Part shown: in pieces, positions 1,900-56,913 of the stretch | Layout: each line of letters begins with the position of its first letter | Position numbering within the stretch: the stretch's first letter is position 1 | DNA from: an uncultured Phenylobacterium sp. | GTDB taxonomy: Bacteria; Pseudomonadota; Alphaproteobacteria; Caulobacterales; Caulobacteraceae | Direction of reading: 5' to 3' | Length of the DNA: 60,664 bases | NCBI RefSeq assembly: GCF_902826855.1 | Contig: NZ_CADEGK010000005.1 | Coordinates: forward strand, 1-60,664 | Program-made: the position numbers and the translations under genes | The notes under the pieces: generated by a model | Database searches by the model: none | What the model was told of the DNA's origin: nothing | The model's input: only the letters and a program-made list of their open reading frames with translations

Positions 1900-1915
1900 T
1901 AAACGCATGATTAAC
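1900..1915. promoter_or_regulatory. CtrA-box-like site upstream of ftsK
   Basis: TAAA-cgcatga-TTAAC, one mismatch to TTAA-N7-TTAAC, in a divergent intergenic region. Confidence 0.5.
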
Positions 1916-1963
1916 AGTCGCTGGCCCAGGATGGCCGGATCAGTGCTTCGGAGAGTGTGACGG

Positions 1964-4309
1964 ATGGCGCGGGCGGCGCGGAAAACCGGGTGGGAGCTGG
2001 CCGCCCACATCGCCAAGCTCGCCTGGAGCCACCCGGCCACGGCGCGCCTGCGCGGGGGCGTGACCGCGGCCTTCGGCGCCGCACTCGCCGCCGCCTTCGC
2101 CACCTACGATCCCACCGACGCCAGCCTGAACGCCGCCGGGACAGGCGCGCCGGGCAACGCCCTGGGCGGGGCGGGGGCGGTTCTGGCCGACATGGCCATC
2201 CAGTCCTTGGGCGTGGGCGCAGGCCTGGCCGCCCTCCTGATCGTCACCAGCGGCCTCAGCCGGGCCGCCGACCCCGAGCCGGACGTGAACCGCGGCCGCC
2301 TCCGCCGGCGCGCCGCCCTTGGCGCCCTGGGCGTCCTGGCGCTGGCCGGCGCCCTGGCCTGGGCCCCGCCGCCGGCGGCCTGGCCGCTGGCCCGCCGGCT
2401 CGGGGGCTTCTGGGGCGACGCGCTGCTCTCGGGCCTGGGCGGCCTGGTGGAGTATGCGCGCCTGCCGTGGGGGGTGATCATCGCAGGCTCGATCCTGACC
2501 TTCGCTGGGATCCTGGCCTACGGCTATGGGCTGGGGCTGTCCCGTGTCGACCTGCGCGGCATCGCCAACGGCATGACCCATGCGCTGACGCCGAAGCCCA
2601 GGCTGAAGGCCGCCCGACCGGAGCCGCGCACCAAGGTCGGCCGCCGCAAGGGACTGGATCCCGTGATTCCCGAGGCTGCCCTTGATCCGGAGCCCGCAGT
2701 CACAACTGAGGCGGCAGGCCCCACTGTAAAGGCGCCCAAGTTCGCGCCCAAGGAGAGCGTGCGCGAGCAGAAGGAAGCCCAGTCCACCTTCGCCTTCGCC
2801 CAGGAGGGCGGCTTCAAGCTGCCGGAACTGGGAATGCTGACCAAGGCGCCGGCCCGCGCCGCCCAATACGACGAAGGCGCGCTGCGCCAGAACGCCCAGT
2901 TGCTGGAGAGCGTGCTGGCGGAGTTCGGCGTGCGCGGCCAGGTGGACCAGATCCGCCCCGGCCCGGTGGTCACGCTCTACGAGCTGGTCCCGGCCGCCGG
3001 CGTGAAGTCGGCCCGGGTCGTGGCGCTGAGCGACGACATCGCGCGCTCCATGAGCGTGGCCTCGGCCCGTGTATCGGTAGTGCCGGGCCGAAACGCCATC
3101 GGCATCGAGTTGCCCAACCAGCGCCGCGAGACGGTCTACCTGCGCGACCTGCTGGCGGCGCCGGAGTACGAGCGCGGCGGCCAGTCGGTGCCCGTGGCTC
3201 TGGGCGAGACCATCGGGGGCGAGCCCTACATTGCCGACCTGGCCAAGATGCCTCACCTGCTGATCGCCGGGACCACCGGCTCGGGCAAGTCGGTGGGCGT
3301 CAACGCCATGATCCTGTCGATCCTCTACAAGCTGCCGCCCGAGCAGTGCCGCCTGATCATGATCGACCCGAAGATGCTGGAGCTGTCGGTCTACGACGGC
3401 ATTCCGCATCTGCTCGCGCCGGTGGTCACCGACCCCAAGAAGGCCATCGTCGCGCTGAAGTGGACGGTCCGCGAGATGGAGGACCGCTACCGCCGGATGT
3501 CGAAGATCGGCGTGCGCAACGTGGCCTCCTACAACGAGCGCGCCCGCGAAGCGCTGGCCAAGGGCGAGCACTTCGAGCGGACGGTCCAGACCGGCTTCGA
3601 CGAAGCCGGCCGCGCCACCTATGAGAGCGAGAAGATCCGGCCCGAGCCGATGCCGTACCTGGTGGTGATCATCGACGAGGTCGCCGACCTGATGATGGTG
3701 GCCGGCAAGGACATCGAGGGCGCGGTCCAGCGACTGGCGCAGATGGCGCGGGCGGCCGGCATCCACCTGATCATGGCCACGCAACGCCCGTCGGTGGACG
3801 TGATCACCGGAACGATCAAGGCCAACTTCCCGACCCGGATCAGCTTCCAGGTCACCTCCAAGATCGACAGCCGCACCATCCTGGGCGAGCAGGGCGCCGA
3901 GCAGCTGCTGGGCCAGGGCGACATGCTCTACATGGCCGGCGGCGGGCGCATCACCCGCCTGCACGGCCCGTTCGTCAGCGACGGAGAGGTCGAGGCGGTC
4001 GCCAAGTTCCTGCGCGACCAGGGCACGCCCAGCTATCTCGACGAGGTCACTGCGGGCGGCGACGAGGAGGACGGCGACGAGAGTGCGTTCGGCGCGGGCG
4101 GGGACAGCGACGCCGGCAACGACCTCTACGACCGCGCCGTGGCCGTCGTCACGCGCGACGGCAAGGCCTCGACCAGCTACATCCAGCGCCGCCTGCAGAT
4201 CGGCTACAACCGCGCCGCCTCGCTGATGGAGCGCATGGAGCAGGAGGGCGTGGTCGGCCCGGCGAACCACGCCGGCAAGCGCGAGATCCTGGTCTCGGCG
4301 GCGCCCTGA
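1964..4309 (+). CDS. ftsK: DNA translocase FtsK
   Basis: N-terminal TM segments, [14 protein letters not shown] Walker [10 protein letters not shown] Walker [11 protein letters not shown]-terminal gamma domain ([17 protein letters not shown]). Confidence 0.97.
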
Positions 4310-4320
4310 GGTCCTGTAGG

Positions 4321-4569
4321 CTAGCGCTTGCCGCGCGCTGGCTTGTGTCCGGTGGTCATCGGGTCGGGCTTCTTCGGCAGGCGCCGACGCTGGTCAGCGC
4401 CGACGTATCGCTCCTGGCTTGAGCCCAGGCCCATGCGGCCGGGCTGCTGCTCGCGCAGGTTCGACTGGCCGGTCCGAATCCGCTCGATCGCATCGCGTAG
4501 CAATTCGGCGGTTTCCGTGTCGCCGGCCTCGGCGGCTTCGCGCATCCGGCGCTGCAGGTCCTCGATCAT
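4321..4569 (-). CDS. Small UvrB/UvrC (UVR) motif-containing protein
   Basis: IEDLQRRMREAAEAGDTETAELLRDAIERIR resembles the UVR coiled-coil motif. Confidence 0.65.
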   Translation of the reverse strand: MIEDLQRRMREAAEAGDTETAELLRDAIERIRTGQSNLREQQPGRMGLGSSQERYVGADQRRRLPKKPDPMTTGHKPARGKR

Positions 4570-4663
4570 GGCTACGGGAACGTCCCTCCGCGCCGCGGCG
4601 TTGCCTTCGGCCCTATTGCCGCCGCCCTGGCGCGATAGGTTAGGGACGGGTTACGGAGCAAGC

Positions 4664-5299
4664 ATGAGCCTTACACGACGCAGCCTCGCCCTGGCGCTGG
4701 CCGCCGCCCCGGTAGCGGCGCCCGCATGGGCGCAGGCGGGGCTGACGCCGCAGGAGCAGGCGTTGGTCGCCCGCGCGGTAGCCTATCTGGAGGGCCTCAC
4801 GGAGGCGCAGGCGAAGTTCGTCCAGACCGACGCACGCGGCCGCTCGACGTCCGGCCAGCTCTACCTGAAGCGGCCTGGCAAGGCCCGGTTCGCCTACGAC
4901 CCGCCCTCGGGCCTGCTGGTGGTGTCGGACGGCGGCCTCGTATCGGTGCAGGACAAGCGGCTGAAGACCTTCGAGTCCTATCCGCTGGGCGTCACGCCGC
5001 TCAGCCTCTTCCTGGCCAGGACCATCCGCCTGGACAAGGGGGTGCAGGTGACCCGCGTGGCGCGGATGTCCGACGGCTTCGCGATCACCGCCCGCGACGG
5101 CCGCAAGGAGACCGCCGGGACCATCACCCTGACCTTCACCGACAATCCGGTCGCCCTGGCCGGCTGGACAGTGACCGATGCCCAGAGCCGGCCCACCCGC
5201 GTGCAGCTGGTCGGGCTTCAACGCGCCTCGGGCCTCGATAAGTCATTGTTCGTGTTGAAGGACCCTCGCCCCAAGAATGTCGGCCGAGGAAAAGTCTAG
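4664..5299 (+). CDS. lolA: Outer-membrane lipoprotein carrier LolA family protein
   Basis: Signal peptide (MSLTRRSLALALAAAP...AWA), FVQ...G.LYLKRPGKARFAY...VVSDG, TPL motif; follows ftsK. Confidence 0.9.
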   Translation: MSLTRRSLALALAAAPVAAPAWAQAGLTPQEQALVARAVAYLEGLTEAQAKFVQTDARGRSTSGQLYLKRPGKARFAYDPPSGLLVVSDGGLVSVQDKRLKTFESYPLGVTPLSLFLARTIRLDKGVQVTRVARMSDGFAITARDGRKETAGTITLTFTDNPVALAGWTVTDAQSRPTRVQLVGLQRASGLDKSLFVLKDPRPKNVGRGKV

Positions 5300-5352
5300 A
5301 TCGTCAAAAGTGTGCCATTCACACCACATGCAAGCTTAACTATGAAAGATCT

Positions 5353-5381
5353 TTGACAAAAGGTCTCTGTGTGGCGATATT
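5353..5381 (+). promoter_or_regulatory. Sigma70-type promoter of candidate sRNA
   Basis: TTGACA (5353-5358), 17-nt spacer, GATATT (5376-5381). Confidence 0.65.
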
Positions 5382-5387
5382 GCCACT

Positions 5388-5506
5388 ACGTCGTTCGCGC
5401 GCCGGTCGTGCGGACGGAATCCGTGCCGGACCCAATCCCCTCCCGGCGGCGGCATGAGAGACAACTAAAACAGCCCGGGCGCACCCATGCGCCCGGGCTT
5501 TCTTTC
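5388..5506 (+). ncRNA. Candidate ~120-nt small RNA (three stem-loops, anti-SD-like loop)
   Basis: Lies between the promoter and an intrinsic terminator; hairpin GUUCGCGCG/CGUGCGGAC; hairpin GCCGG-ACCCAAUCCCCUC-CCGGC; no credible ORF; 5' end estimated from promoter spacing. Confidence 0.65.
5472..5506 (+). terminator. Rho-independent terminator
   Basis: AGCCCGGGCGCA-ccca-TGCGCCCGGGCT followed by TTCTTT. Confidence 0.85.
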
Positions 5507-5562
5507 ACTGGAGAGGCCCGTGGCGCGGAAGCGCGGCGGCTCTTCTTCGTCTAGACAGACCC

Positions 5563-6369
5563 ATGCGTCTTCGAATCTGCACCTGGAACGTCAACTCCGT
5601 TCGCCTGCGCGCCGAGCAGGCCGCTCGCTTCGTGGCGGAGCAGGCGCCGGACGTGCTGTGCCTGCAGGAGATCAAGTGCCGTGAAGGCGAGTTCCCGGTG
5701 AACGCCTTCAAGGAGATGGGGCTGCCGCACCTGAGGATCGCCGGCCAGAAGGGCTGGCACGGGGTGGCGATCGCCTCGCGCCTGCCCCTGGACCCCGCCC
5801 CGCCGCTGCAGGTCTGCCGCGAGGGCCACGCCCGCTGCGTCGGGGCCACGGTGGCCGGGGTGGAGATCCACAACTTCTACATCCCCGCCGGCGGGGATGC
5901 GCCCGACCGCGAGGCGAACCCCAAGTTCGACCACAAGCTGGACTTCTACGAGAAGCTCACGGCCGAACTGTCCCGCCGCGACCCCAAGGCGCCCCTGGCC
6001 ATAGTCGGCGATCTGAACGTGGCGCCGGGCGAGTTCGACGTCTGGAACCACAAGTACATGTCGCGGATCGTCAGCCACACGCCGGCCGAGGTGGCGGCGT
6101 TCCGCGCCCTGGAGGCGTCGCTGGGCTTCATCGACCTGACCCGGGCCATGACGCCAGAGCCGCAGAAGCTGGCCTCCTGGTGGAGCTACCGCGCCCAGGA
6201 TTTCCGCCTGTCCAACCGCGGCCTGAGGCTGGACCACATCCTGGTGACGCCCGGCCTGCGAGACGCCGCCTGGCGCCTCGGCGCGCCGGCCAGCCGCGTC
6301 CACGACGACGTGCGCGCCTGGGAACGCCCCAGCGACCACGCGCCCGTGAGCGCGGACCTGGTGCTTTAG
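5563..6369 (+). CDS. xth: Exodeoxyribonuclease III family (AP endonuclease)
   Basis: TWNVNSVR, LCLQEIK, GDLNVAP, GLRLDHIL, PSDHAP motifs. Confidence 0.95.
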   Translation: MRLRICTWNVNSVRLRAEQAARFVAEQAPDVLCLQEIKCREGEFPVNAFKEMGLPHLRIAGQKGWHGVAIASRLPLDPAPPLQVCREGHARCVGATVAGVEIHNFYIPAGGDAPDREANPKFDHKLDFYEKLTAELSRRDPKAPLAIVGDLNVAPGEFDVWNHKYMSRIVSHTPAEVAAFRALEASLGFIDLTRAMTPEPQKLASWWSYRAQDFRLSNRGLRLDHILVTPGLRDAAWRLGAPASRVHDDVRAWERPSDHAPVSADLVL

Positions 6370-6430
6370 GGGGGTGGGTCTGGCTCGCGCGGAGCTGGCT
6401 GCGCGGTGCGCGCCGCAGGCGCTGCGTTTC

Positions 6431-6532
6431 AACACCAAGACCACCAAGACCACCAAGACCACCAAGCGATCGGGGCAGTCGTTGGCTGCGGAGCTTCCCC
6501 GGCCTCTTCGTGGTCCTGGTGGTCTTGGTGTT
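6431..6532. repeat. Extragenic palindromic element built from 9-bp CACCAAGAC units
   Basis: Three tandem CACCAAGAC plus a partial copy (6433-6466) and an inverted arm CTCTTCGTGGTCCTGGTGGTCTTGGTGTT (6504-6532) between convergent genes. Confidence 0.85.
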
Positions 6533-6579
6533 TCAATCGGCGAGCTCTCTGTGGTTCGAGTGCGACGCCTGCGGCGTGT

Positions 6580-7470
6580 CTAAGCGACCGCCATCTCCTC
6601 AGGGATCACGTCGACCTCGACCGTCAGGTTCTGGTCACGGGCGCCCAGGATGATGCCGTCGATGGGCGCGACGTCGGAGTAGTCGCGCCCGACGCCCAGC
6701 TCGATGTGGTCGTTCTGGGCGAGGATGGCGTTGGTTGGGTCGAAGCCGACCCAGCCGACGTCCTTGCCGCACCAGACGGTGACCCAGGCGTGGGTCGCGT
6801 CGGCGCCCTCCAGCCGCGGCTGGCCCGGCGGTGGGATGGTGCGCAGGTATCCCGAGATGTAGCTGGTCGGCAGGCCCAGGCCGCGCAGGCCGCAAATCAT
6901 GATGTGCGCGAAGTCCTGGCAGACTCCGTGGCGGGCCTTGAACGCCTCCAGCACCGGGGTGGAGACCTCGGTCGCGCCGGGGTCGTATTTGAATTCGCGG
7001 TGGATGCGGCGCATCAGGTCCGAGACCGCCTCGATGATCGGCCGACCAGGCGGGAAGCTGGCGCGCGCATACTCGGTGATCTCGGCCAGCTTGGGGGTGC
7101 GCCGGGTCGGATAGAGGAACACGGCCGGTCCGTTGGCCTCCATGCCCGTCGAGGCGAAGGCCGCGGCGCGGACCTGCTCCCACGGCAGGCTGGCCGAGGC
7201 GTCGGGCAGCGGCGGCGCGTGGACGTCGACGCGGGAGTTTGCCTCGATGACCAGGGTCTCGTGGCGCTTGTCGATCAGCACCGTGACCATGACCTCGCCG
7301 AACGGGCCCAGGCGCTCGTCGCGCAGCGTGGGGGCCGGGGTGACGGTCAGCTGGGTCGTCAACACCGTCTGGCCGGGCGAGGAATTGGGGGTGAGCCGCA
7401 GGACGCAGCGGGCAAAGCTGACCGTGTTGCCGTAGTTGTAGGTGGTGCGGTGACGCAGGGTGTAGATCAC
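6580..7470 (-). CDS. Transglutaminase-like protein with N-terminal bacterial transglutaminase domain
   Basis: MIYTLRHRTTYNY..., catalytic GVCQDFAH, HAW, FDPTN, GRDYSDVAP. Confidence 0.93.
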   Translation of the reverse strand: MIYTLRHRTTYNYGNTVSFARCVLRLTPNSSPGQTVLTTQLTVTPAPTLRDERLGPFGEVMVTVLIDKRHETLVIEANSRVDVHAPPLPDASASLPWEQVRAAAFASTGMEANGPAVFLYPTRRTPKLAEITEYARASFPPGRPIIEAVSDLMRRIHREFKYDPGATEVSTPVLEAFKARHGVCQDFAHIMICGLRGLGLPTSYISGYLRTIPPPGQPRLEGADATHAWVTVWCGKDVGWVGFDPTNAILAQNDHIELGVGRDYSDVAPIDGIILGARDQNLTVEVDVIPEEMAVA

Positions 7471-10016
7471 GCGAGCCCCATCAGCTTGACGGTGGGAACG
7501 GCGGTGGCGCCCTGCAGGAAGAAGCGGTCTCCGATGGCGCCGGAGAAGGCCATCAGCGCTTCCTCCAGTTCCTCCACCTTGGCGGCGTTCAGCGCCGCGG
7601 CGTCGATGGTCTCCACCTGCGCGGCCAGCGGCAGCAGAATCCGCCCCGGCGCCTCCAGCATACCGTCTTCGTGCAGGGTCGGCAGGACGGCGAGGTGCTC
7701 CTTCAGCGCCTCGACCTGGAAGGCCAGGGAGCGGGTGTTGTACGGGTCCAGCATCACCATGTCGCGCACCGGCCCCAGCGCCAGGCCCACCAGGTAGCGG
7801 GCGCGGTAGCTGATCTGGCTGTCGGCCAGGTCGAGCAGGAGGTCCAGGTCGTCGGTGGTGGCGTCGTCATGGGCCAGCAGCCGGGTGAGCTGGCAGGTGT
7901 TCACGCCCCGCTCGATGCGCCGGCCCATGTCCAGGAAGCGCCAGCCGGCCACCCGGTTCATGTTCTCCTGGGTCATACCTGAGAGCGCGGCCACCACGCG
8001 CAGCGCGGCTTCAACGTGGCGCAGCGCCTGGGCCTCAGACGTGATCGCCTCGGTCCGGTTCGCGAGCGTCCCCTCCAGGTCGAGCAACAGGGCCCAGAAA
8101 TCGGCGCTGAGCCGCTCGCGCATGGACGACGCGGTGCGCTGGGCCGAGCGCACCAGGCTGACAACCGAGCCCCAGGACGACGTCTTGAGCAGGGCGTCAC
8201 GGGCGGCCACCGCGGTTGAACTGCCCGCCGCATCCTTTTCCAGGGCGCCCCAGTCGATCAGCACATGCTGCAGGTGGTCGTAGCTGTCGCCCGTGGCGCT
8301 GACGGCGCCCTCGGCGTCCATCAGGCTGGTGCAGAGCGCACGGACCAGGCGCAGGGTCGCCTCGGTGCGCTCCAGGTAGCGGCCCAGCCAGAACAGGTTG
8401 TCGGCGGCGCGGCTCGGCAGGTGGCCCAGGATGCGGCGGACCTTCACGTCCTCGCGGCTGGCCATCAGCGAGATGCGTTCCACCGGCTTGTCGTCGATCA
8501 CCCAGACGTCGGCGGTGTTGGCGCCCTCGCCCATTGAGATGGCGCGCACGTCGAGGCGGTCGGAGGTTCGGCAGAAGCCGCCGGGCATGATCTTGATGCC
8601 CTCCGGCGTGAAGGCCGCGAAGACGCGCAGCACGAAGGGGGCCGGCTCGAGGCGGCCGTCGCGCAGCACCGGCATGGTCGAGAGCTGCACCACCTCCTGG
8701 CCTACGAAGTCGACGGGACGGTCGGCCATGCGGCTGCGCACGCCGTCGCGCTCCTCGGGCGTCATGTCGCTGGTCAGCTTCGAGGCGGTGAGGCCCGCGC
8801 CCTGGATGCCGTTGAAGGCGGGGCCGAGCGCCAGATTGTCGAACTCCCGCAGCACACGCTCGTGCTCCCCGGGTTGGCCGCACCACCAGGTGGCGATGTT
8901 GGGCATCTTCAGGTCCTCGCCCAGCAGGCGGCGGCAGAGGCGCGGCAGGAAGCCGAGCAGCGCCTTGGACTCGATGACGCCGGAGCCGGGCATGTTCAAC
9001 ACCGTCACCCCGCCCTGGCGGATCGCCTCGAGCATGCCGGGCGTGCCCAGCCGCGACTGGCTGTTCAGTTCCAGCGGGTCGAGGAAATCGGCGTCGACGC
9101 GGCGGAGGATCGCGTCGGCCCGCTTCAGGCCCGCGATGGTGCGGACGTAGACCTTGCCCTCCCGGGCCACCAGGTCGTCGCCCTCCACCAGCAGGAAGCC
9201 CAGGTAGCGCGCAAGGTGTGCCTGCTCGAAATAGGTTTCCGAGAACCGTCCCGGGCTGAGCACGCAGATGCGCGGATCCTCACGCTCCGCCGCCTCGGAG
9301 AGCCCGCGACGCAGGCCGTCGAAGAAGGGCGCCAGGCGGTGGACGTTCATGGCGTTGTAGAGGTTCGGATAGGCTCGGCTGAGCACCAGCCGGTTCTCCA
9401 GCGCATAGCCCGCGCCGGACGGGGCCTGTGTGCGGTCGTCCAGCACCCACCAGCGGCCGTCGGGCCCACGGCCCAGGTCTGCGGCGTAGACGCCCATGTA
9501 GCGGCCGCCCGGCGGCTTCACCCCGCGCATCGCGCGAAGGAAGTCGATGGAGCCGGTGAGCGCGGCGGCCGGCAGGGCCCCCTCCGCCAGGAGACGGCCC
9601 TCGCCGTAGATGTCCTGCAACAAGGCCTCGACCAGCTCGGCGCGCTGGGTGACGCCGGCGGCGATCTCCTCCCACTCCTTCTGGTCCAGGATCAGCGGCA
9701 GCGGGTTCAGCGGCCATGTGCGCTCGTTCTCCTCGCCGTAGATGCGGTAGGAGGCGCCGCTGTCGCGGATATGGCGGTTGGCGAGGCCGAAGCGGGTCTT
9801 GAAATCTGCCTCTGGGTACTCTGCGAAGTCACCCAGGAAGGCCAGCCAGTGGTCGCGCGGCCGCCGCCCCGGATCGAACAGCTCGTCTGGCACGCCCCGC
9901 AGGGGATGGTAGCCCTTCAGCCAGCCCGACAGCCGGTGCGCCGCCGTCGGCTCCAGGTCCGCCCTGCGCTGCACCGCCGTGGATGTCTCCGCCGCCACGG
10001 TGTCGCTCTCCCTCAC
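7467..10016 (-). CDS. Circularly permuted type 2 ATP-grasp protein fused to alpha-E (DUF403) domain
   Basis: DRTQAPSGAGYALENR, YFEQAHLARYLG, MPGG; C-terminal SRAADNLFWLGRYLERTE and GRRIER (alpha-E ER motifs); start uncertain. Confidence 0.92.
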   Translation of the reverse strand: MRESDTVAAETSTAVQRRADLEPTAAHRLSGWLKGYHPLRGVPDELFDPGRRPRDHWLAFLGDFAEYPEADFKTRFGLANRHIRDSGASYRIYGEENERTWPLNPLPLILDQKEWEEIAAGVTQRAELVEALLQDIYGEGRLLAEGALPAAALTGSIDFLRAMRGVKPPGGRYMGVYAADLGRGPDGRWWVLDDRTQAPSGAGYALENRLVLSRAYPNLYNAMNVHRLAPFFDGLRRGLSEAAEREDPRICVLSPGRFSETYFEQAHLARYLGFLLVEGDDLVAREGKVYVRTIAGLKRADAILRRVDADFLDPLELNSQSRLGTPGMLEAIRQGGVTVLNMPGSGVIESKALLGFLPRLCRRLLGEDLKMPNIATWWCGQPGEHERVLREFDNLALGPAFNGIQGAGLTASKLTSDMTPEERDGVRSRMADRPVDFVGQEVVQLSTMPVLRDGRLEPAPFVLRVFAAFTPEGIKIMPGGFCRTSDRLDVRAISMGEGANTADVWVIDDKPVERISLMASREDVKVRRILGHLPSRAADNLFWLGRYLERTEATLRLVRALCTSLMDAEGAVSATGDSYDHLQHVLIDWGALEKDAAGSSTAVAARDALLKTSSWGSVVSLVRSAQRTASSMRERLSADFWALLLDLEGTLANRTEAITSEAQALRHVEAALRVVAALSGMTQENMNRVAGWRFLDMGRRIERGVNTCQLTRLLAHDDATTDDLDLLLDLADSQISYRARYLVGLALGPVRDMVMLDPYNTRSLAFQVEALKEHLAVLPTLHEDGMLEAPGRILLPLAAQVETIDAAALNAAKVEELEEALMAFSGAIGDRFFLQGATAVPTVKLMGLA

Positions 10017-53397: not shown

Positions 53398-53871
53398 CTA
53401 GCGGGCTGGGGCCCCGGCTGCGGCGTGCCGATCGACGGCCTCGATCTCCGCGTAGCGCCGTGGCGCCGTCCAAGCGCCGTAGCCGATGGTGAGAAGCCCG
53501 AGAAAGCCCCAGATCAGGGCAGCTGTCAGATAGGCCCAGCCGCTGATCGTAGAATCCACCACCCGTCCCAGGTGGGTGACCACGACGAGCACCTGGAAGG
53601 CCGCAACGAAGAGTGGCCAGTAGCGGCCGCTGCGCAACGCCAACCAAAGATAGAGGCCCAGCAGGGCAACGTCGACGACAAGCATTCCCCACTGCGTCGC
53701 GCCACTGGCCGTCCCACCGGACATGCGAACGACGACCATCGTGAACGCCCAGTTGGCGAGCAGGCCGCCAGCCGCCAGCCGCTCGTCGTCACGACCGCGC
53801 CACACCGCAAGCGCGCAGACCGCCATGAGCGCCGTCGGCCAGATCCAGTGCGGAAGCTGATAGGCGGACAA
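53398..53871 (-). CDS. Hypothetical multi-pass membrane protein
   Basis: Five hydrophobic helices; WRG...ER, D..LL, S.RYWP...AFQ..H motifs; TTG start without an obvious RBS. Confidence 0.8.
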   Translation of the reverse strand: MSAYQLPHWIWPTALMAVCALAVWRGRDDERLAAGGLLANWAFTMVVVRMSGGTASGATQWGMLVVDVALLGLYLWLALRSGRYWPLFVAAFQVLVVVTHLGRVVDSTISGWAYLTAALIWGFLGLLTIGYGAWTAPRRYAEIEAVDRHAAAGAPAR

Positions 53872-53876
53872 GAGAA

Positions 53877-53905
53877 AGGCCCCCGGGAAGGTTTCCCGAG
53901 GGCCC
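53877..53905 (-). terminator. Terminator-like hairpin directly before the membrane-protein start
   Basis: Minus strand GGGCCCUCGGGAA-ACC-UUCCCGGGGGCCU then UUCUCUUG; that UUG is the next start codon. Confidence 0.6.
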
Positions 53906-53943: not shown

Positions 53944-54312
53944 TCAGGCCGCGCGGACGGCGCGGATCTGGCGCATCTGATGTTCGCCCGCGCGCTCGAT
54001 GGGCGCCGGCTTCGTCGTCATGGGGTCGCCGTTCAGCTTCACCGCGCCGAGGCCGATCTGGCCCTGGACGATGCTGAGTTCCTTGTGGGTCTCCACGATG
54101 GCGCGGCGGGCCTCAGCGAGCGCAAGGATGGCGGCGCTGGCGCGCTCCAGGGCGTCCTGTCCAATCAGGGCCGAGGCGCCGGCCTGCTGGCGCAGCTGCG
54201 GCATCATGCCGGTGAGATGTGCGGTCTTGCTGAGGGCGGCGTCGATCGCAGCTTCGGCGTCCCAGAGGGCGCCAGCAACCTGCTCGGCGACCATGCGGCG
54301 TTCTTTGAGCAT
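53944..54312 (-). CDS. Hypothetical helical protein (MLKERR... type)
   Basis: GGAGAG RBS; AE.AID.AL...GQ.AL...AR..IV..H..L amphipathic pattern; host-like codons. Confidence 0.85.
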   Translation of the reverse strand: MLKERRMVAEQVAGALWDAEAAIDAALSKTAHLTGMMPQLRQQAGASALIGQDALERASAAILALAEARRAIVETHKELSIVQGQIGLGAVKLNGDPMTTKPAPIERAGEHQMRQIRAVRAA

Positions 54313-54408: not shown

Positions 54409-55164
54409 TCAGGCCTTGAGCAGGGTGCGCGCGAGGTCGCCCAGTTCGCCGAGACCCGCCAGCATGCCCCCGAAGGCGAGGGCGGTGATGACGGCAATCG
54501 CTGCAACGAGGCCCAGCCTCGCGGCTGGGCTCAGCTCATTTCGGCGGAGCCCACCTCCGTTTCGCCCTTGAAGTTCTCGTCCAGGAGAACCCAGGTGAGG
54601 CAGAGGATTTCGCGGAGCACCATCTCCGCCGGCTTGAACGGGGCCAGCTTGCGGGTCGCCGACACCAGGTGCCGGGCCATGTCCGCCTGCGCCGTCGTAG
54701 CCGACAGATCGACGAGCTGCCGCTCGAGCTGCGTCCAGGAGAAGTTGGGAAGAAGCTCCTCCCGCTTGGCCAGCGCCGGCCAGCGGGCCTCGAAGTCGTC
54801 GATCTCCCGGCGAAGGCGGAGGGCCTTGCCAATCACCGCCCTGTTCTCGAAGTTCGGCCAGTCGCCCATCGGAAGCCCCTTGTGTTGCCGGCTCATCGAG
54901 CCCGCAATCGGAGGCGGCGTCTGTCCTGATCGTGTCCTGTCCTGATGCGATCAGGACAGGATTAACCACGTCCACCTCGCGCAGAAGCTTGGCGGCTTGG
55001 TAGCGGTCGCCCACGCCGAGCTTGCGGCGCGCGCGGTCGCAGTAGGTGTCCACGGAGGTCTTGGACATCCCCAGCTCGCGCGCGATCTGCTTGGAGCTGA
55101 AATGCTGGTCGACCAGACGCAGGCACTCGCGCTCGCGTGGAGTAAGGAGGTCGACAGGTGTCAT
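54409..55164 (-). CDS. LuxR-type HTH regulator with long linker and C-terminal TM helix
   Basis: MTPVDLLTPRERECLRLV...SSKQIARELGMS..SV......ARRKLGV..R; frame stays open to NELSPAARLGLVAAIAVITALAFGGMLAGL. Confidence 0.8.
   Translation of the reverse strand: MTPVDLLTPRERECLRLVDQHFSSKQIARELGMSKTSVDTYCDRARRKLGVGDRYQAAKLLREVDVVNPVLIASGQDTIRTDAASDCGLDEPATQGASDGRLAELREQGGDWQGPPPSPGDRRLRGPLAGAGQAGGASSQLLLDAARAAARRSVGYDGAGGHGPAPGVGDPQAGPVQAGGDGAPRNPLPHLGSPGRELQGRNGGGLRRNELSPAARLGLVAAIAVITALAFGGMLAGLGELGDLARTLLKA
54531..54869 (-). CDS. 112-aa hypothetical protein nested out-of-frame inside the LuxR gene
   Basis: AAGGGG RBS before ATG 54869; MGDWPNFENRAVIGKALRLRREIDDFEARWP...; GC3-rich codons and globular composition, unlike the host frame over the same bases. 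Confidence 0.75.
   Translation of the reverse strand: MGDWPNFENRAVIGKALRLRREIDDFEARWPALAKREELLPNFSWTQLERQLVDLSATTAQADMARHLVSATRKLAPFKPAEMVLREILCLTWVLLDENFKGETEVGSAEMS
54921..54960. promoter_or_regulatory. Intragenic operator-like palindrome with direct repeats
   Basis: CCTGTCCTGAT-GCG-ATCAGGACAGG (54936-54960) plus a third TGTCCTGAT copy 16 bp away (54922-54930). Confidence 0.6.
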
Positions 55165-55314
55165 TACGCCCTCGAAGCGTACGGGGGTCTTGGAGCCACA
55201 GTAAACGATGCCTTGAACGTTTCGTCTACTTTGACGAGCAGATTGCCGGCTTCGCGCATGCCGCGCGGGCTGTTTTGACGCGGCAGCCGGCGTTTTTGCC
55301 GCGCTGATGGACGC

Positions 55315-55329: not shown

Positions 55330-55356
55330 GCCGTTCGCGCCTAAGGCTTGGCGACC

Positions 55357-56913
55357 ATGCGCCGACCCCTTCGACCCCTCTCCGAGCGCCGCCCAAGCCG
55401 GGCGCAGATCAGCGCCGAGCAACTGGCCTCACTGAGCCACGAGTTCCGCACGCCGCTGAACGGCGTGCTGGGCATGGCCCGGCTGCTGGAAGGCACCCGG
55501 CTCACGGCCGAGCAGAAGACCTATGTGGCGGCTCTGCACGACAGCGGCCAGCACCTCCTGACGCTGGTCAACGACGTGCTGGATTTCGCCAAGCTGGGCG
55601 CTGGCGGAGTCGAGCTGCACCCGGCCGCGATGGAGGTGGAGGACCTGCTGCGCTCGGTGGCGGAACTCCTCTCGCCGCGGGCGCGGGAGAAGGGGCTGGA
55701 GATTGCCTGGGCCGCCCCAGCGCGGCCAGTGTACGCCCTGGCCGACGAGGGTCGCCTGCGCCAGATCTTGCTGAATTTCGCCGGCAACGCCATCAAGTTC
55801 ACCCAGGCCGGCGGCGTGCTTCTCCGTGCGGAAGTCCCAGAGACCGGTCGCCTGCGAATCACCGTGGAGGACACCGGGCCGGGGGTCTCGAAATCCGATC
55901 GTGACCGCATTTTCGAGGCCTTCGCCCAGGCCGAGGCATCGCATGCGGACCTTGGCGGGGCAGGCCTGGGTCTGGCCATCGCGCGGCGGCTTGCACGCGC
56001 CATGGGAGGCGACGTGGGTGTCGAAGCCGCCGGGAGCCTGGGCGCCAAGCCCGGCGAGGGCGGCGCCTGCTTCTGGTTCGAGGCGACGTTGCCGGGCCTG
56101 CCTGGCGCCTCGCCGGTGGCGTCACTGGCGGGCCACACCGTCGCCGTCGCGTCGGCCAATCCCGTCGTCCGGGAGGCCGCTCGCCGCCAGATCGAGGCCT
56201 GCGGCGGCGCCGCCCGCGTGACCCATGCGTTGCCAGAGGCCATCGCCCGCACCAAGCCCGGCGACGTGATCCTTGTGGACGCCAGCCTGGCCGTCACGGG
56301 CGGCGCCTTGAGGCCGCCCCTCCAGCGGGCCGCCATCATCCTGCTGGCGCCGGACGAGCGCGCCGCCATTGCCCGCTACCGTCGCGCGGGCTTTGCCGGC
56401 TATCTGATCAAGCCCCTGCGCCGCGCCTCGGTGGCCGAACGCGTCCTGATCGCCGCCGGGACCACCACCGTCGCCGCTCAGCCACCGCGCGACGACGAGC
56501 GGATCGCCCAAGCGGCAGCGCCCGGCGCGCGCGTCCTGCTGGTCGAGGACAACCCGATCAACGCCCTCCTGGCCCGGGCCCTGCTGACGCGCGAGGGCTG
56601 CGACGTGGAGCATGCCACAGGCGGCGAGGACGCGCTGGCCGCGGTGGCCGTCGGGAGGTTCGACCTCATCCTGATCGACATGCGCATGCCGGTACTCTCG
56701 GGTGAGGAGACGGCGCGGCGGCTGCGCGCGGCCCGCGTGACAACGCCGATCGTCGCCCTGACGGCTTACGCTTTTGAGGACGACCGCCGCGTGTGCCTGG
56801 CCGCAGGCATGGACGATTTCCTGGTCAAGCCGCGGTCGCCGGATGCCCTGCGCGCCGTGCTGACGCGGTGGGCCCAGCCACAGCCGGCGAGGGGGCAGGC
56901 CCGCCGGGCCTAG
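55357..56913 (+). CDS. shkA: Soluble hybrid histidine kinase ShkA-like (DHp-CA, pseudo-receiver, receiver)
   Basis: No TM; SHEFRTPLNG; pseudo-REC with GFAGYLIKPLR; DDERIA linker; VLLVEDNPIN receiver; next to ampG and near comM, as recalled for Caulobacter. Confidence 0.82.
   Translation: MRRPLRPLSERRPSRAQISAEQLASLSHEFRTPLNGVLGMARLLEGTRLTAEQKTYVAALHDSGQHLLTLVNDVLDFAKLGAGGVELHPAAMEVEDLLRSVAELLSPRAREKGLEIAWAAPARPVYALADEGRLRQILLNFAGNAIKFTQAGGVLLRAEVPETGRLRITVEDTGPGVSKSDRDRIFEAFAQAEASHADLGGAGLGLAIARRLARAMGGDVGVEAAGSLGAKPGEGGACFWFEATLPGLPGASPVASLAGHTVAVASANPVVREAARRQIEACGGAARVTHALPEAIARTKPGDVILVDASLAVTGGALRPPLQRAAIILLAPDERAAIARYRRAGFAGYLIKPLRRASVAERVLIAAGTTTVAAQPPRDDERIAQAAAPGARVLLVEDNPINALLARALLTREGCDVEHATGGEDALAAVAVGRFDLILIDMRMPVLSGEETARRLRAARVTTPIVALTAYAFEDDRRVCLAAGMDDFLVKPRSPDALRAVLTRWAQPQPARGQARRA

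What the first reader, a model, noticed from the sequence alone, without database searches (positions are those of the whole stretch)
54531..54869. A whole gene nested out-of-frame, same strand, inside the LuxR regulator's linker
Seen: over these 339 bp the LuxR frame encodes low-complexity G/A/P/R linker. The shifted frame has an AAGGGG RBS, an ATG, host-like GC3 codons and a globular-looking 112-aa protein (FSWTQLERQL, EMVLREILCL). Its stop falls exactly where the host frame resumes a meaningful NELS...TM segment, and the host frame has no stop throughout. Fully nested same-strand genes are rare in bacteria. Caveat: in GC-rich DNA this particular shifted frame is often stop-free by chance. 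The argument rests on the HTH before and the TM after being in one frame. Inference: the nested product is an anti- or co-regulator, or an effector locked to its regulator.
Basis: partly seen in the sequence, partly recalled or inferred. Interest (0 to 1): 0.85.

Follow-up and report, generated by a model that had tools for sequence, protein, structure and literature searches.

The report
Gene nested inside membrane-tethered regulator's linker
A membrane-anchored gene regulator of stalked bacteria carries a complete second protein gene in a shifted reading frame inside its flexible tether, an arrangement already shown by mass spectrometry in Caulobacter crescentus and kept here across its whole family, and the regulator likely switches on that inner gene by binding a palindrome inside its own coding sequence.

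Summary
Real, but not a first sighting. The 112-codon gene (54531-54869, minus) lies in the +1 frame inside a 251-aa GerE/LuxR-HTH, linker, transmembrane-helix gene. In one genome this proves little: that shifted frame is open in 46% of same-length windows. Across 115 relatives picked by the inner protein alone, the host frame has no stop over the inner gene in 115 of 115; the neighbouring gene's equivalent frame is open in only 31 of 98. In 110 loci it runs unbroken from HTH to anchor. The Caulobacter crescentus orthologues (CCNA_00823/CCNA_03941) are published: Schrader 2014 Fig 4E legend reports an internal start site and peptides for both frames. The scan also found this before on other DNA (e1-5235032). 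Added here: selection on both frames; a clade-specific palindrome about 60 bp before the internal start that tracks the HTH recognition helix (likely self-operator); short-linker relatives without the inner gene; and published transposon data putting regulator and downstream membrane gene in one hyper-adhesion cluster. The inner protein's function is untested; best guess is a feedback modulator of the regulator.

The parts
54409..55164 (-). Host gene: 251-aa regulator, GerE/LuxR HTH + ~150-aa low-complexity linker + one C-terminal membrane helix (orthologue of CC_0782/CCNA_00823)
54988..55149 (-). GerE/LuxR helix-turn-helix, residues 6-59
   Evidence: PF00196 E 1.6e-13, 50.5 bits, cut-off 23.5
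54460..54516 (-). Predicted membrane helix of the host, residues 217-235, followed by a 16-residue tail
   Evidence: 19-residue hydropathy above 1.8 and after the nested stop in 110 of 110 nested loci
54531..54869 (-). Nested gene, +1 frame, 112 aa, four predicted helices, net acidic (orthologue of CCNA_03941)
54876..54881 (-). Ribosome-binding site (AAGGGG) of the nested gene
   Evidence: sequence; purine-rich SD plus start codon in relatives
54888..54923 (-). Inferred internal promoter: start near 54888, -35-like CAGACG at 54918-54923, 17-nt spacer
   Evidence: placed by analogy to the NA1000 internal start 19 nt before the CCNA_03941 ATG; not detected by the strict consensus scan
54938..54958 (.). 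Perfect 9-3-9 palindrome inside host linker codons, centred about -60 from the inferred start; likely operator of the host HTH
54922..54930 (.). Third copy of the half-site, abutting the inferred -35
55200..55228 (-). Inferred promoter of the host gene (TAGACG, 17 nt, TTTACT)
   Evidence: conserved in relatives; inferred
53944..54312 (-). Gene 3: 122-aa helical protein (orthologue of CC_0781/CCNA_00822), likely co-transcribed with the nested gene
   Evidence: no own start site listed in the files searched
53877..53905 (-). Terminator-like hairpin between genes 3 and 4
   Evidence: NA1000 gene 4 is translated about 30-fold less than gene 3
53398..53871 (-). Gene 4: 157-aa five-helix membrane protein (orthologue of CC_0780/CCNA_00821), likely partner of the regulator's anchor

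Best explanation
Two real genes share this DNA: a membrane-anchored GerE/LuxR-type regulator whose long tether is the by-product reading of a nested 112-aa gene, and the regulator likely binds the palindrome in its own linker-coding DNA to activate the strong internal promoter that would make the nested protein and the next gene's product. SHOWN here: both frames are kept under selection across the family; the tether is constrained in frame and composition but hardly in sequence; each clade has a palindrome at the same place. SHOWN in the C. crescentus orthologue (published): a weak leaderless start for the regulator, a far stronger internal start for the nested gene, peptides from both frames. 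INFERRED: operator binding by the host HTH (about 65%), activation rather than repression (about 65% given binding), gene 4 as the anchor's signalling partner (about 55%), output touching adhesion and starvation response (about 50%). The nested protein, abundant, soluble and acidic against a basic HTH, is most likely a feedback brake or co-factor of the regulator (about 35%); it is an accessory, since related modules lack it. It likely arose by overprinting or insertion in the unconstrained tether just behind the internal promoter.
For: Host frame open over the nested gene in 115 of 115 loci chosen by nested-protein match alone; 43 of 109 expected open from genome codon usage; matched control gene 3 open in 31 of 98 loci with 123 stops, gene 4 in 49 of 97, nested 109 of 109. 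T at stop-risk third positions 0 of 902 in the nested gene against 58 of 840 in gene 3 (49 loci under 80% identity). 28 different HTH-to-start distances in intact loci all keep the frame. In 31 disjoint pairs amino-acid differences are 0.13 (nested), 0.065 (HTH), 0.165 (anchor part), 0.295 (host frame in the overlap), four-fold sites 0.29-0.36. Nested four-fold third bases are 53% G, 36% C against 33% G, 57% C in gene 3, making the tether poorer in Arg, Pro, His and net neutral. Published: PMC4117421 Fig 4E legend and Dataset rows; PMC4287350 start-site counts about 1,900-9,000 internal against 19-41 primary. Palindrome: present in 49 genus-level loci with changes on both arms and both mismatch types (T-G 5, C-A 5), as expected of a DNA site rather than an RNA stem; symmetry in the same window of 23 divergent loci 6.1 against 5.1 of 8 in 230 control windows, p 7e-6; the 8 loci with Ala at helix position 3 all carry C/G on both arms; a separate lineage (L105) with a similar helix carries three copies of the same pentamer. 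Regulator and gene 4 mutants share the 'polar appendage' hyper-adhesion profile (PMC6372794 Table S5). Nested protein net negative in 104 of 109, HTH positive in all.
Against: No binding, expression or interaction was measured for this genome. The palindrome window and spacing were chosen after seeing the data; only 8 of 23 divergent loci reach 7 of 8 pairs and several show none. The Ala covariation is one clade and L105 one case. Palindrome codons also give a recurring P..SG.D motif, so protein constraint is not excluded. 6 of 80 named loci and 3 of 115 handle loci (overlapping sets) have the HTH cut off from the anchor by a frameshift, one locus (L009) has a stop in the nested gene, and one copy (L096) stands without a regulator. 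Transposon hits in CCNA_00823 could also break the nested gene; CCNA_03941 and CCNA_00822 are not found in that paper's supplements. Pairs were picked by nested identity 70-95%, which bounds the nested value. No second strong operator in this genome, so how the module reaches adhesion is unexplained.
Confidence: 0.6

Rival explanations
1. Same architecture, but the nested protein is an output of the operon that works with gene 3 (or alone) on a downstream target such as adhesion or starvation physiology and never touches the regulator; nesting is only a consequence of sitting behind the internal promoter.
For: Nested and gene 3 products are translated at similar high levels in NA1000 (1106-1470 and 597-681 RPKM) while the regulator's start is about 200-fold weaker; a stand-alone copy exists (L096); the comS/srfA pair is described as functionally independent (PMC12350097).
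Against: Modules with gene 3 but no nested gene exist (L199, L200, L204, L205), so gene 3 does not need it; consistent charge opposition to the HTH.
Confidence: 0.35
2. The palindrome is bound by another factor, or is an RNA hairpin that limits the long regulator message; the regulator controls other genes.
For: Perfect 12-pair arms in the window could fold; the long message is rare; symmetry is weak in several clades.
Against: C-A mismatches are as common as T-G among 22 distinct site sequences; the site changes with the clade's recognition helix; it occurs about once per genome.
Confidence: 0.2
3. Only the nested gene and a short HTH are functional; read-through to the hydrophobic tail is a GC-rich accident or an assembly artefact.
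For: 46% of such windows are open by chance in one genome; a few loci are frameshifted.
Against: 0 stops in 115 loci against 123 in the control gene; anchor conserved in 110 of 110; short-linker HTH-anchor relatives; no indel in contigs; published peptides for both genes.
Confidence: 0.02

Closest known systems
Caulobacter crescentus NA1000 CCNA_00823 (CC_0782) with nested CCNA_03941 (Schrader et al. 2014, PMC4117421, Fig 4E; the text prints CCNA_00832, the dataset coordinates and the 804/360-nt lengths fit CCNA_00823/CCNA_03941)
   Same: Orthologues: same frames, order and neighbours (CC_0781, CC_0780); internal start site, ribosome profiling and LC-MS for both genes reported.
   Different: Other genus; nested proteins about 44% identical; different palindrome and recognition helix. 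The passages I read give no function, no mention of the membrane anchor, conservation or operator.
Bacillus subtilis comS inside srfA
   Same: Same-strand, out-of-frame, fully nested bacterial gene (PMC12350097 passage).
   Different: Recalled: comS is a 46-aa peptide read from the srf message within an enzyme gene. Here a 112-aa folded protein has its own promoter and the host stretch is a disordered tether.
Transmembrane transcription regulators ToxR/TcpP/CadC (recalled)
   Same: N-terminal DNA-binding domain, linker, one membrane helix, co-encoded membrane partner.
   Different: GerE/LuxR HTH rather than OmpR winged helix; no periplasmic sensor (median 15 residues after the helix); tether about 150 aa and dual-coding.
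Short-linker HTH-anchor + gene 3 modules (L204, L205 in the same family; L199, L200 in another family of the class)
   Same: HTH, C-terminal hydrophobic helix, gene 3 homologue directly downstream.
   Different: Shorter linker, alternative frames closed by stops, no nested-protein match.

Membership tests
Same-strand out-of-frame nested gene (comS type) | Own start, RBS and stop wholly inside the host CDS, different frame | tested here: met
   110 of 115 loci, always +1
Same-strand out-of-frame nested gene (comS type) | Both frames under selection | tested here: met
Same-strand out-of-frame nested gene (comS type) | Both frames translated | not testable with these tools
   No RNA or peptide data for this genome; published for the NA1000 orthologues
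Orthologue of CCNA_00823/CCNA_03941 | Homology of all four genes and same order | tested here: met
LuxR/GerE HTH family | PF00196 above curated cut-off | tested here: met
   50.5 bits against 23.5
Quorum-sensing LuxR or NarL-type response regulator | N-terminal autoinducer-binding or receiver domain | tested here: not met
   HTH starts at residue 6; no such domain; all NCBIfam hits far below cut-off
ToxR/CadC-type transmembrane regulator | DNA-binding domain followed by one membrane helix | tested here: met
   hydropathy only, 110 of 110
ToxR/CadC-type transmembrane regulator | OmpR-type winged helix and periplasmic sensor domain | tested here: not met
   GerE HTH; median 15-residue tail
ToxR/CadC-type transmembrane regulator | Binds DNA while anchored; interacts with a membrane partner | not testable with these tools
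   only synteny and shared mutant profile
Known anti-activator or other characterised fold (nested protein) | Sequence or structural match to a characterised family | tested here: inconclusive
   no Pfam/NCBIfam family; best Z 6.3, rmsd 2.4, 58 aligned, a common three-helix bundle

The most novel reading that the evidence does not exclude
A self-contained switch written on one stretch of DNA in three layers: the tether of a membrane-anchored regulator is at once a protein spacer, the regulator's own operator and promoter, and the gene for its inhibitor; operator and recognition helix co-evolve in paralogues, and in Caulobacter a slippery C7 run toggles the regulator between tethered and free while leaving the inner gene intact. 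The inner gene family was born by overprinting the tether and has been kept across the family.
Probability: 0.2. Interest if true: 0.85.

Novelty: new member of a known kind. Interest (0 to 1): 0.55.

Why it matters
It is one of few bacterial same-strand nested genes with peptide evidence in both frames, and the family-wide data turn a one-panel curiosity into an old, selected arrangement with over a hundred divergent copies and relatives that lack the inner gene, a good case for studying gene birth in a tether. It exposes an annotation blind spot: for the window and 5 of 5 relatives tested the inner protein is on record and the regulator, as I delimited it, is not. It also points to an unstudied membrane-anchored regulator in a model organism whose mutants over-adhere, and warns that those mutants may hit two genes.

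Tried and rejected
Complex prediction of HTH with nested protein: not run, the queue was full. Fold searches: nested model (pLDDT 84.7) no Foldseek match at E<=0.001 and only generic bundles by VIA; gene 4 model (pLDDT 94.3) likewise, best Z 10.8, rmsd 2.7, 124 aligned, a designed bundle. ESM Atlas: only hypothetical clusters. Pfam on all members of the nested and gene 4 alignments: nothing consistent. Profile search of 1.84 billion representatives: 271 hits, best 150 listed, 49-225 aa, no names. Sequencing runs: no RNA holder listed. Strict sigma-70 scan: 0 sites. Wider regulon: no second strong site in this genome (score 18 against 36); in 61 genus genomes extra two-mismatch sites in 18, reversed-pattern control in 9; of 10 such places examined 2 were the module itself, 8 had no module gene nearby. 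Anchor as a separate small gene: host-frame start near the nested stop in only 25 of 110. CtrA/cell-cycle control: both start sites are listed as not cell-cycle regulated, though an older array flag says regulated. Literature searches for locus tags and for the module found no functional paper; PMC4083442 supplements no hit, PMC8545394 rows empty, PMC7595951 whole text no mention, PMC13001252 concerns another LuxR. Subscription papers and unsearched supplement files (PMC4287350 files 13-20) may hold more.

Full report
Observation. The window holds a 251-aa ORF at 54409-55164 (minus) with a GerE/LuxR HTH at residues 6-59, a low-complexity middle and a hydrophobic helix at 217-235, and inside it, in the +1 frame, a 112-aa ORF at 54531-54869 with an AAGGGG site and GC3 of 0.90. 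Contigs of four runs of one study, two of them possibly the source, show no indel. By itself this is weak: among 2607 crudely called genes of this genome the same shifted frame is stop-free in 3722 of 8048 windows of 112 codons.

Relatives. The nested protein matches 29 of 36 genus genomes and 0 of 24 genomes of other families of the order, and 77 of 251 family genomes in 13 of 27 genera. I fetched every place listed, 115 loci chosen without regard to the host frame. In 110 the HTH frame runs through the nested gene into a membrane helix, always with the same offset; 3 have one frameshift between HTH and nested gene with the downstream frame and anchor intact; 1 is cut by a contig end; 1 is a stand-alone copy. 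One of the 110 (L009) has a TAG in the nested gene and was left out of the 109 used for codon counts. In the 80 named loci kept (of 232 found; Caulobacter and Phenylobacterium; overlapping with the first set, so not additive) 72 are nested with anchor, 6 frameshifted, 2 at contig ends. Two more nested loci came from a DNA-pattern search.

Selection. The host frame is open over the nested gene in 115 of 115 loci; 43 of 109 would be expected, and for 23 loci under 50% identity the joint chance is about 10^-7.5 (kin are not fully independent). The matched control is clearer: the equivalent frame of gene 3 is open in 31 of 98 loci with 123 stops, that of gene 4 in 49 of 97; T at stop-risk sites is 0 of 902 against 58 of 840. 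28 different HTH-to-start distances keep the frame. In 31 disjoint pairs the nested protein differs at 0.13 of residues with four-fold sites at 0.29, the host frame in the overlap at 0.295 (pairs picked by nested identity). The nested gene prefers G at four-fold sites (53% against 33% in gene 3), which turns Arg, Pro and His of the tether into Gly, Ala and Asp and brings its net charge to zero. So the tether is held open and neutral, not to a sequence.

What is known. Exact look-up of the Caulobacter orthologues gave CCNA_03941 and CC_0782. Schrader 2014 (PMC4117421; passages and supplement rows seen, not the figure) describes in Fig 4E an 804-nt CDS and an internally started 360-nt CDS in another frame with LC-MS peptides for both; the dataset gives CCNA_00823 at 884441-885244 and CCNA_03941 at 884551-884910, both LC-MS verified, the host leaderless. 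The RPKM of CCNA_00823 includes nested-gene reads and says nothing on its level. Zhou 2015 (PMC4287350; supplement rows only) lists the internal start at 884929 with about 1,900-9,000 counts and the primary start with 19-41, neither cell-cycle regulated. Hershey 2019 (PMC6372794; passages and Table S5 part 1) lists CCNA_00823 (-2.6) and CCNA_00821 (-2.0 at passage 5) in the hyper-adhesive polar-appendage cluster without discussing them. CC_0782 and CC_0781 transcripts rise on carbon starvation (PMC3073932 supplement rows, values 3.6-4.6, unit not seen) and CC_0781 in stationary phase (PMC4551563, one table row). Nine searches found no functional study. The scan reported the same module on another genome (e1-5235032).

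The operator. Between HTH and nested start the window has a perfect 9-3-9 palindrome (54938-54958) and a third half-site (54922-54930) touching an inferred -35. 49 loci carry it, nearly all ending 69 nt before the start; among 22 distinct versions two positions vary, with 8 both-arm changes, 5 T-G and 5 C-A mismatches, which fits a DNA site better than an RNA stem. Other clades have other palindromes at about the same place; across 23 divergent loci symmetry is 6.1 of 8 against 5.1 in 230 control windows (p 7e-6; window and gap chosen after inspection; 8 of 23 reach 7 or more against 11 of 230). The 8 loci with Ala for Thr at helix position 3, a base-contacting position in DosR-type HTHs (recalled), all have the C/G version on both arms, but they are one clade. 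L105, which the tree places away from the genus clade, has a similar helix and three copies of the same pentamer (31 loci, 339 columns). The site is close to unique per genome. Sites centred near -60 and abutting -35 are activator positions (general knowledge). I infer that the tethered regulator activates the internal promoter.

The module and its origin. Gene 3 follows in 98 of 113 loci by a crude motif and gene 4 in 97 of those 98; a terminator-like hairpin separates them. A gene 3 profile over 400 class genomes hit 4 besides this one; four of those loci have an HTH-anchor gene with a shorter linker, closed side frames and no nested match. The three-gene module therefore works without the inner gene, which is likely a later addition behind the internal promoter; overprinting and insertion are not told apart, and no rooted test was made.

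The nested protein. Four predicted helices (pLDDT 84.7), conserved core at residues 41-100, no family or fold match, acidic in 104 of 109 while the HTH is always basic. A feedback brake or co-factor is my best guess (about 35%), a partner of gene 3 or independent output about as likely. The complex prediction could not be run because the queue was full, so binding is open.

Verdict. A true nested gene pair, orthologous to a published one, so not new in kind; the conservation, selection, likely self-operator and link to adhesion are additions not found in the papers searched. Interest 0.55.

Noticed in passing
L127, L131, L132, L133, L134, L142 (Caulobacter-type loci): All 6 frameshifted loci among 80 break between HTH and operator; 5 show a C6 or C8 run where intact relatives mostly have C7 (L132 not parsed). 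Phase variation between tethered and free regulator, or homopolymer assembly error.
   Followed up: partly
window 55348-56913 (+): Soluble hybrid histidine kinase (HisKA, HATPase, receiver) next to an AmpG-like transporter; resembles Caulobacter ShkA (recalled). Divergent from the module here, but the Caulobacter module has other neighbours.
   Followed up: no
window 53944-54312 and orthologues: Gene 3 has a conserved helical body, then GLGAV, a short variable Gly/Asp stretch, KP and a tail ending like LRAV..AA; could be a processed signal peptide.
   Followed up: no
G000:C50:23439-23765 (-): Second gene 3 paralogue in this genome at a contig end; upstream part not assembled.
   Followed up: partly
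L096 (about 1900-2225, +): Stand-alone copy of the nested family with no HTH or anchor; the same genome has a nested copy (L108).
   Followed up: no
L226 (G023:C66:49528-49548): Perfect copy of the palindrome with no module gene nearby, in a genome where the nested query found nothing.
   Followed up: partly
L009 1579-1581 (oriented): TAG at codon 27 of the nested gene with the host frame intact: natural null or sequence error.
   Followed up: no
L197/L201 and L198/L203: Tandem pairs of gene 3 homologues without an HTH nearby in two genomes of another genus.
   Followed up: no
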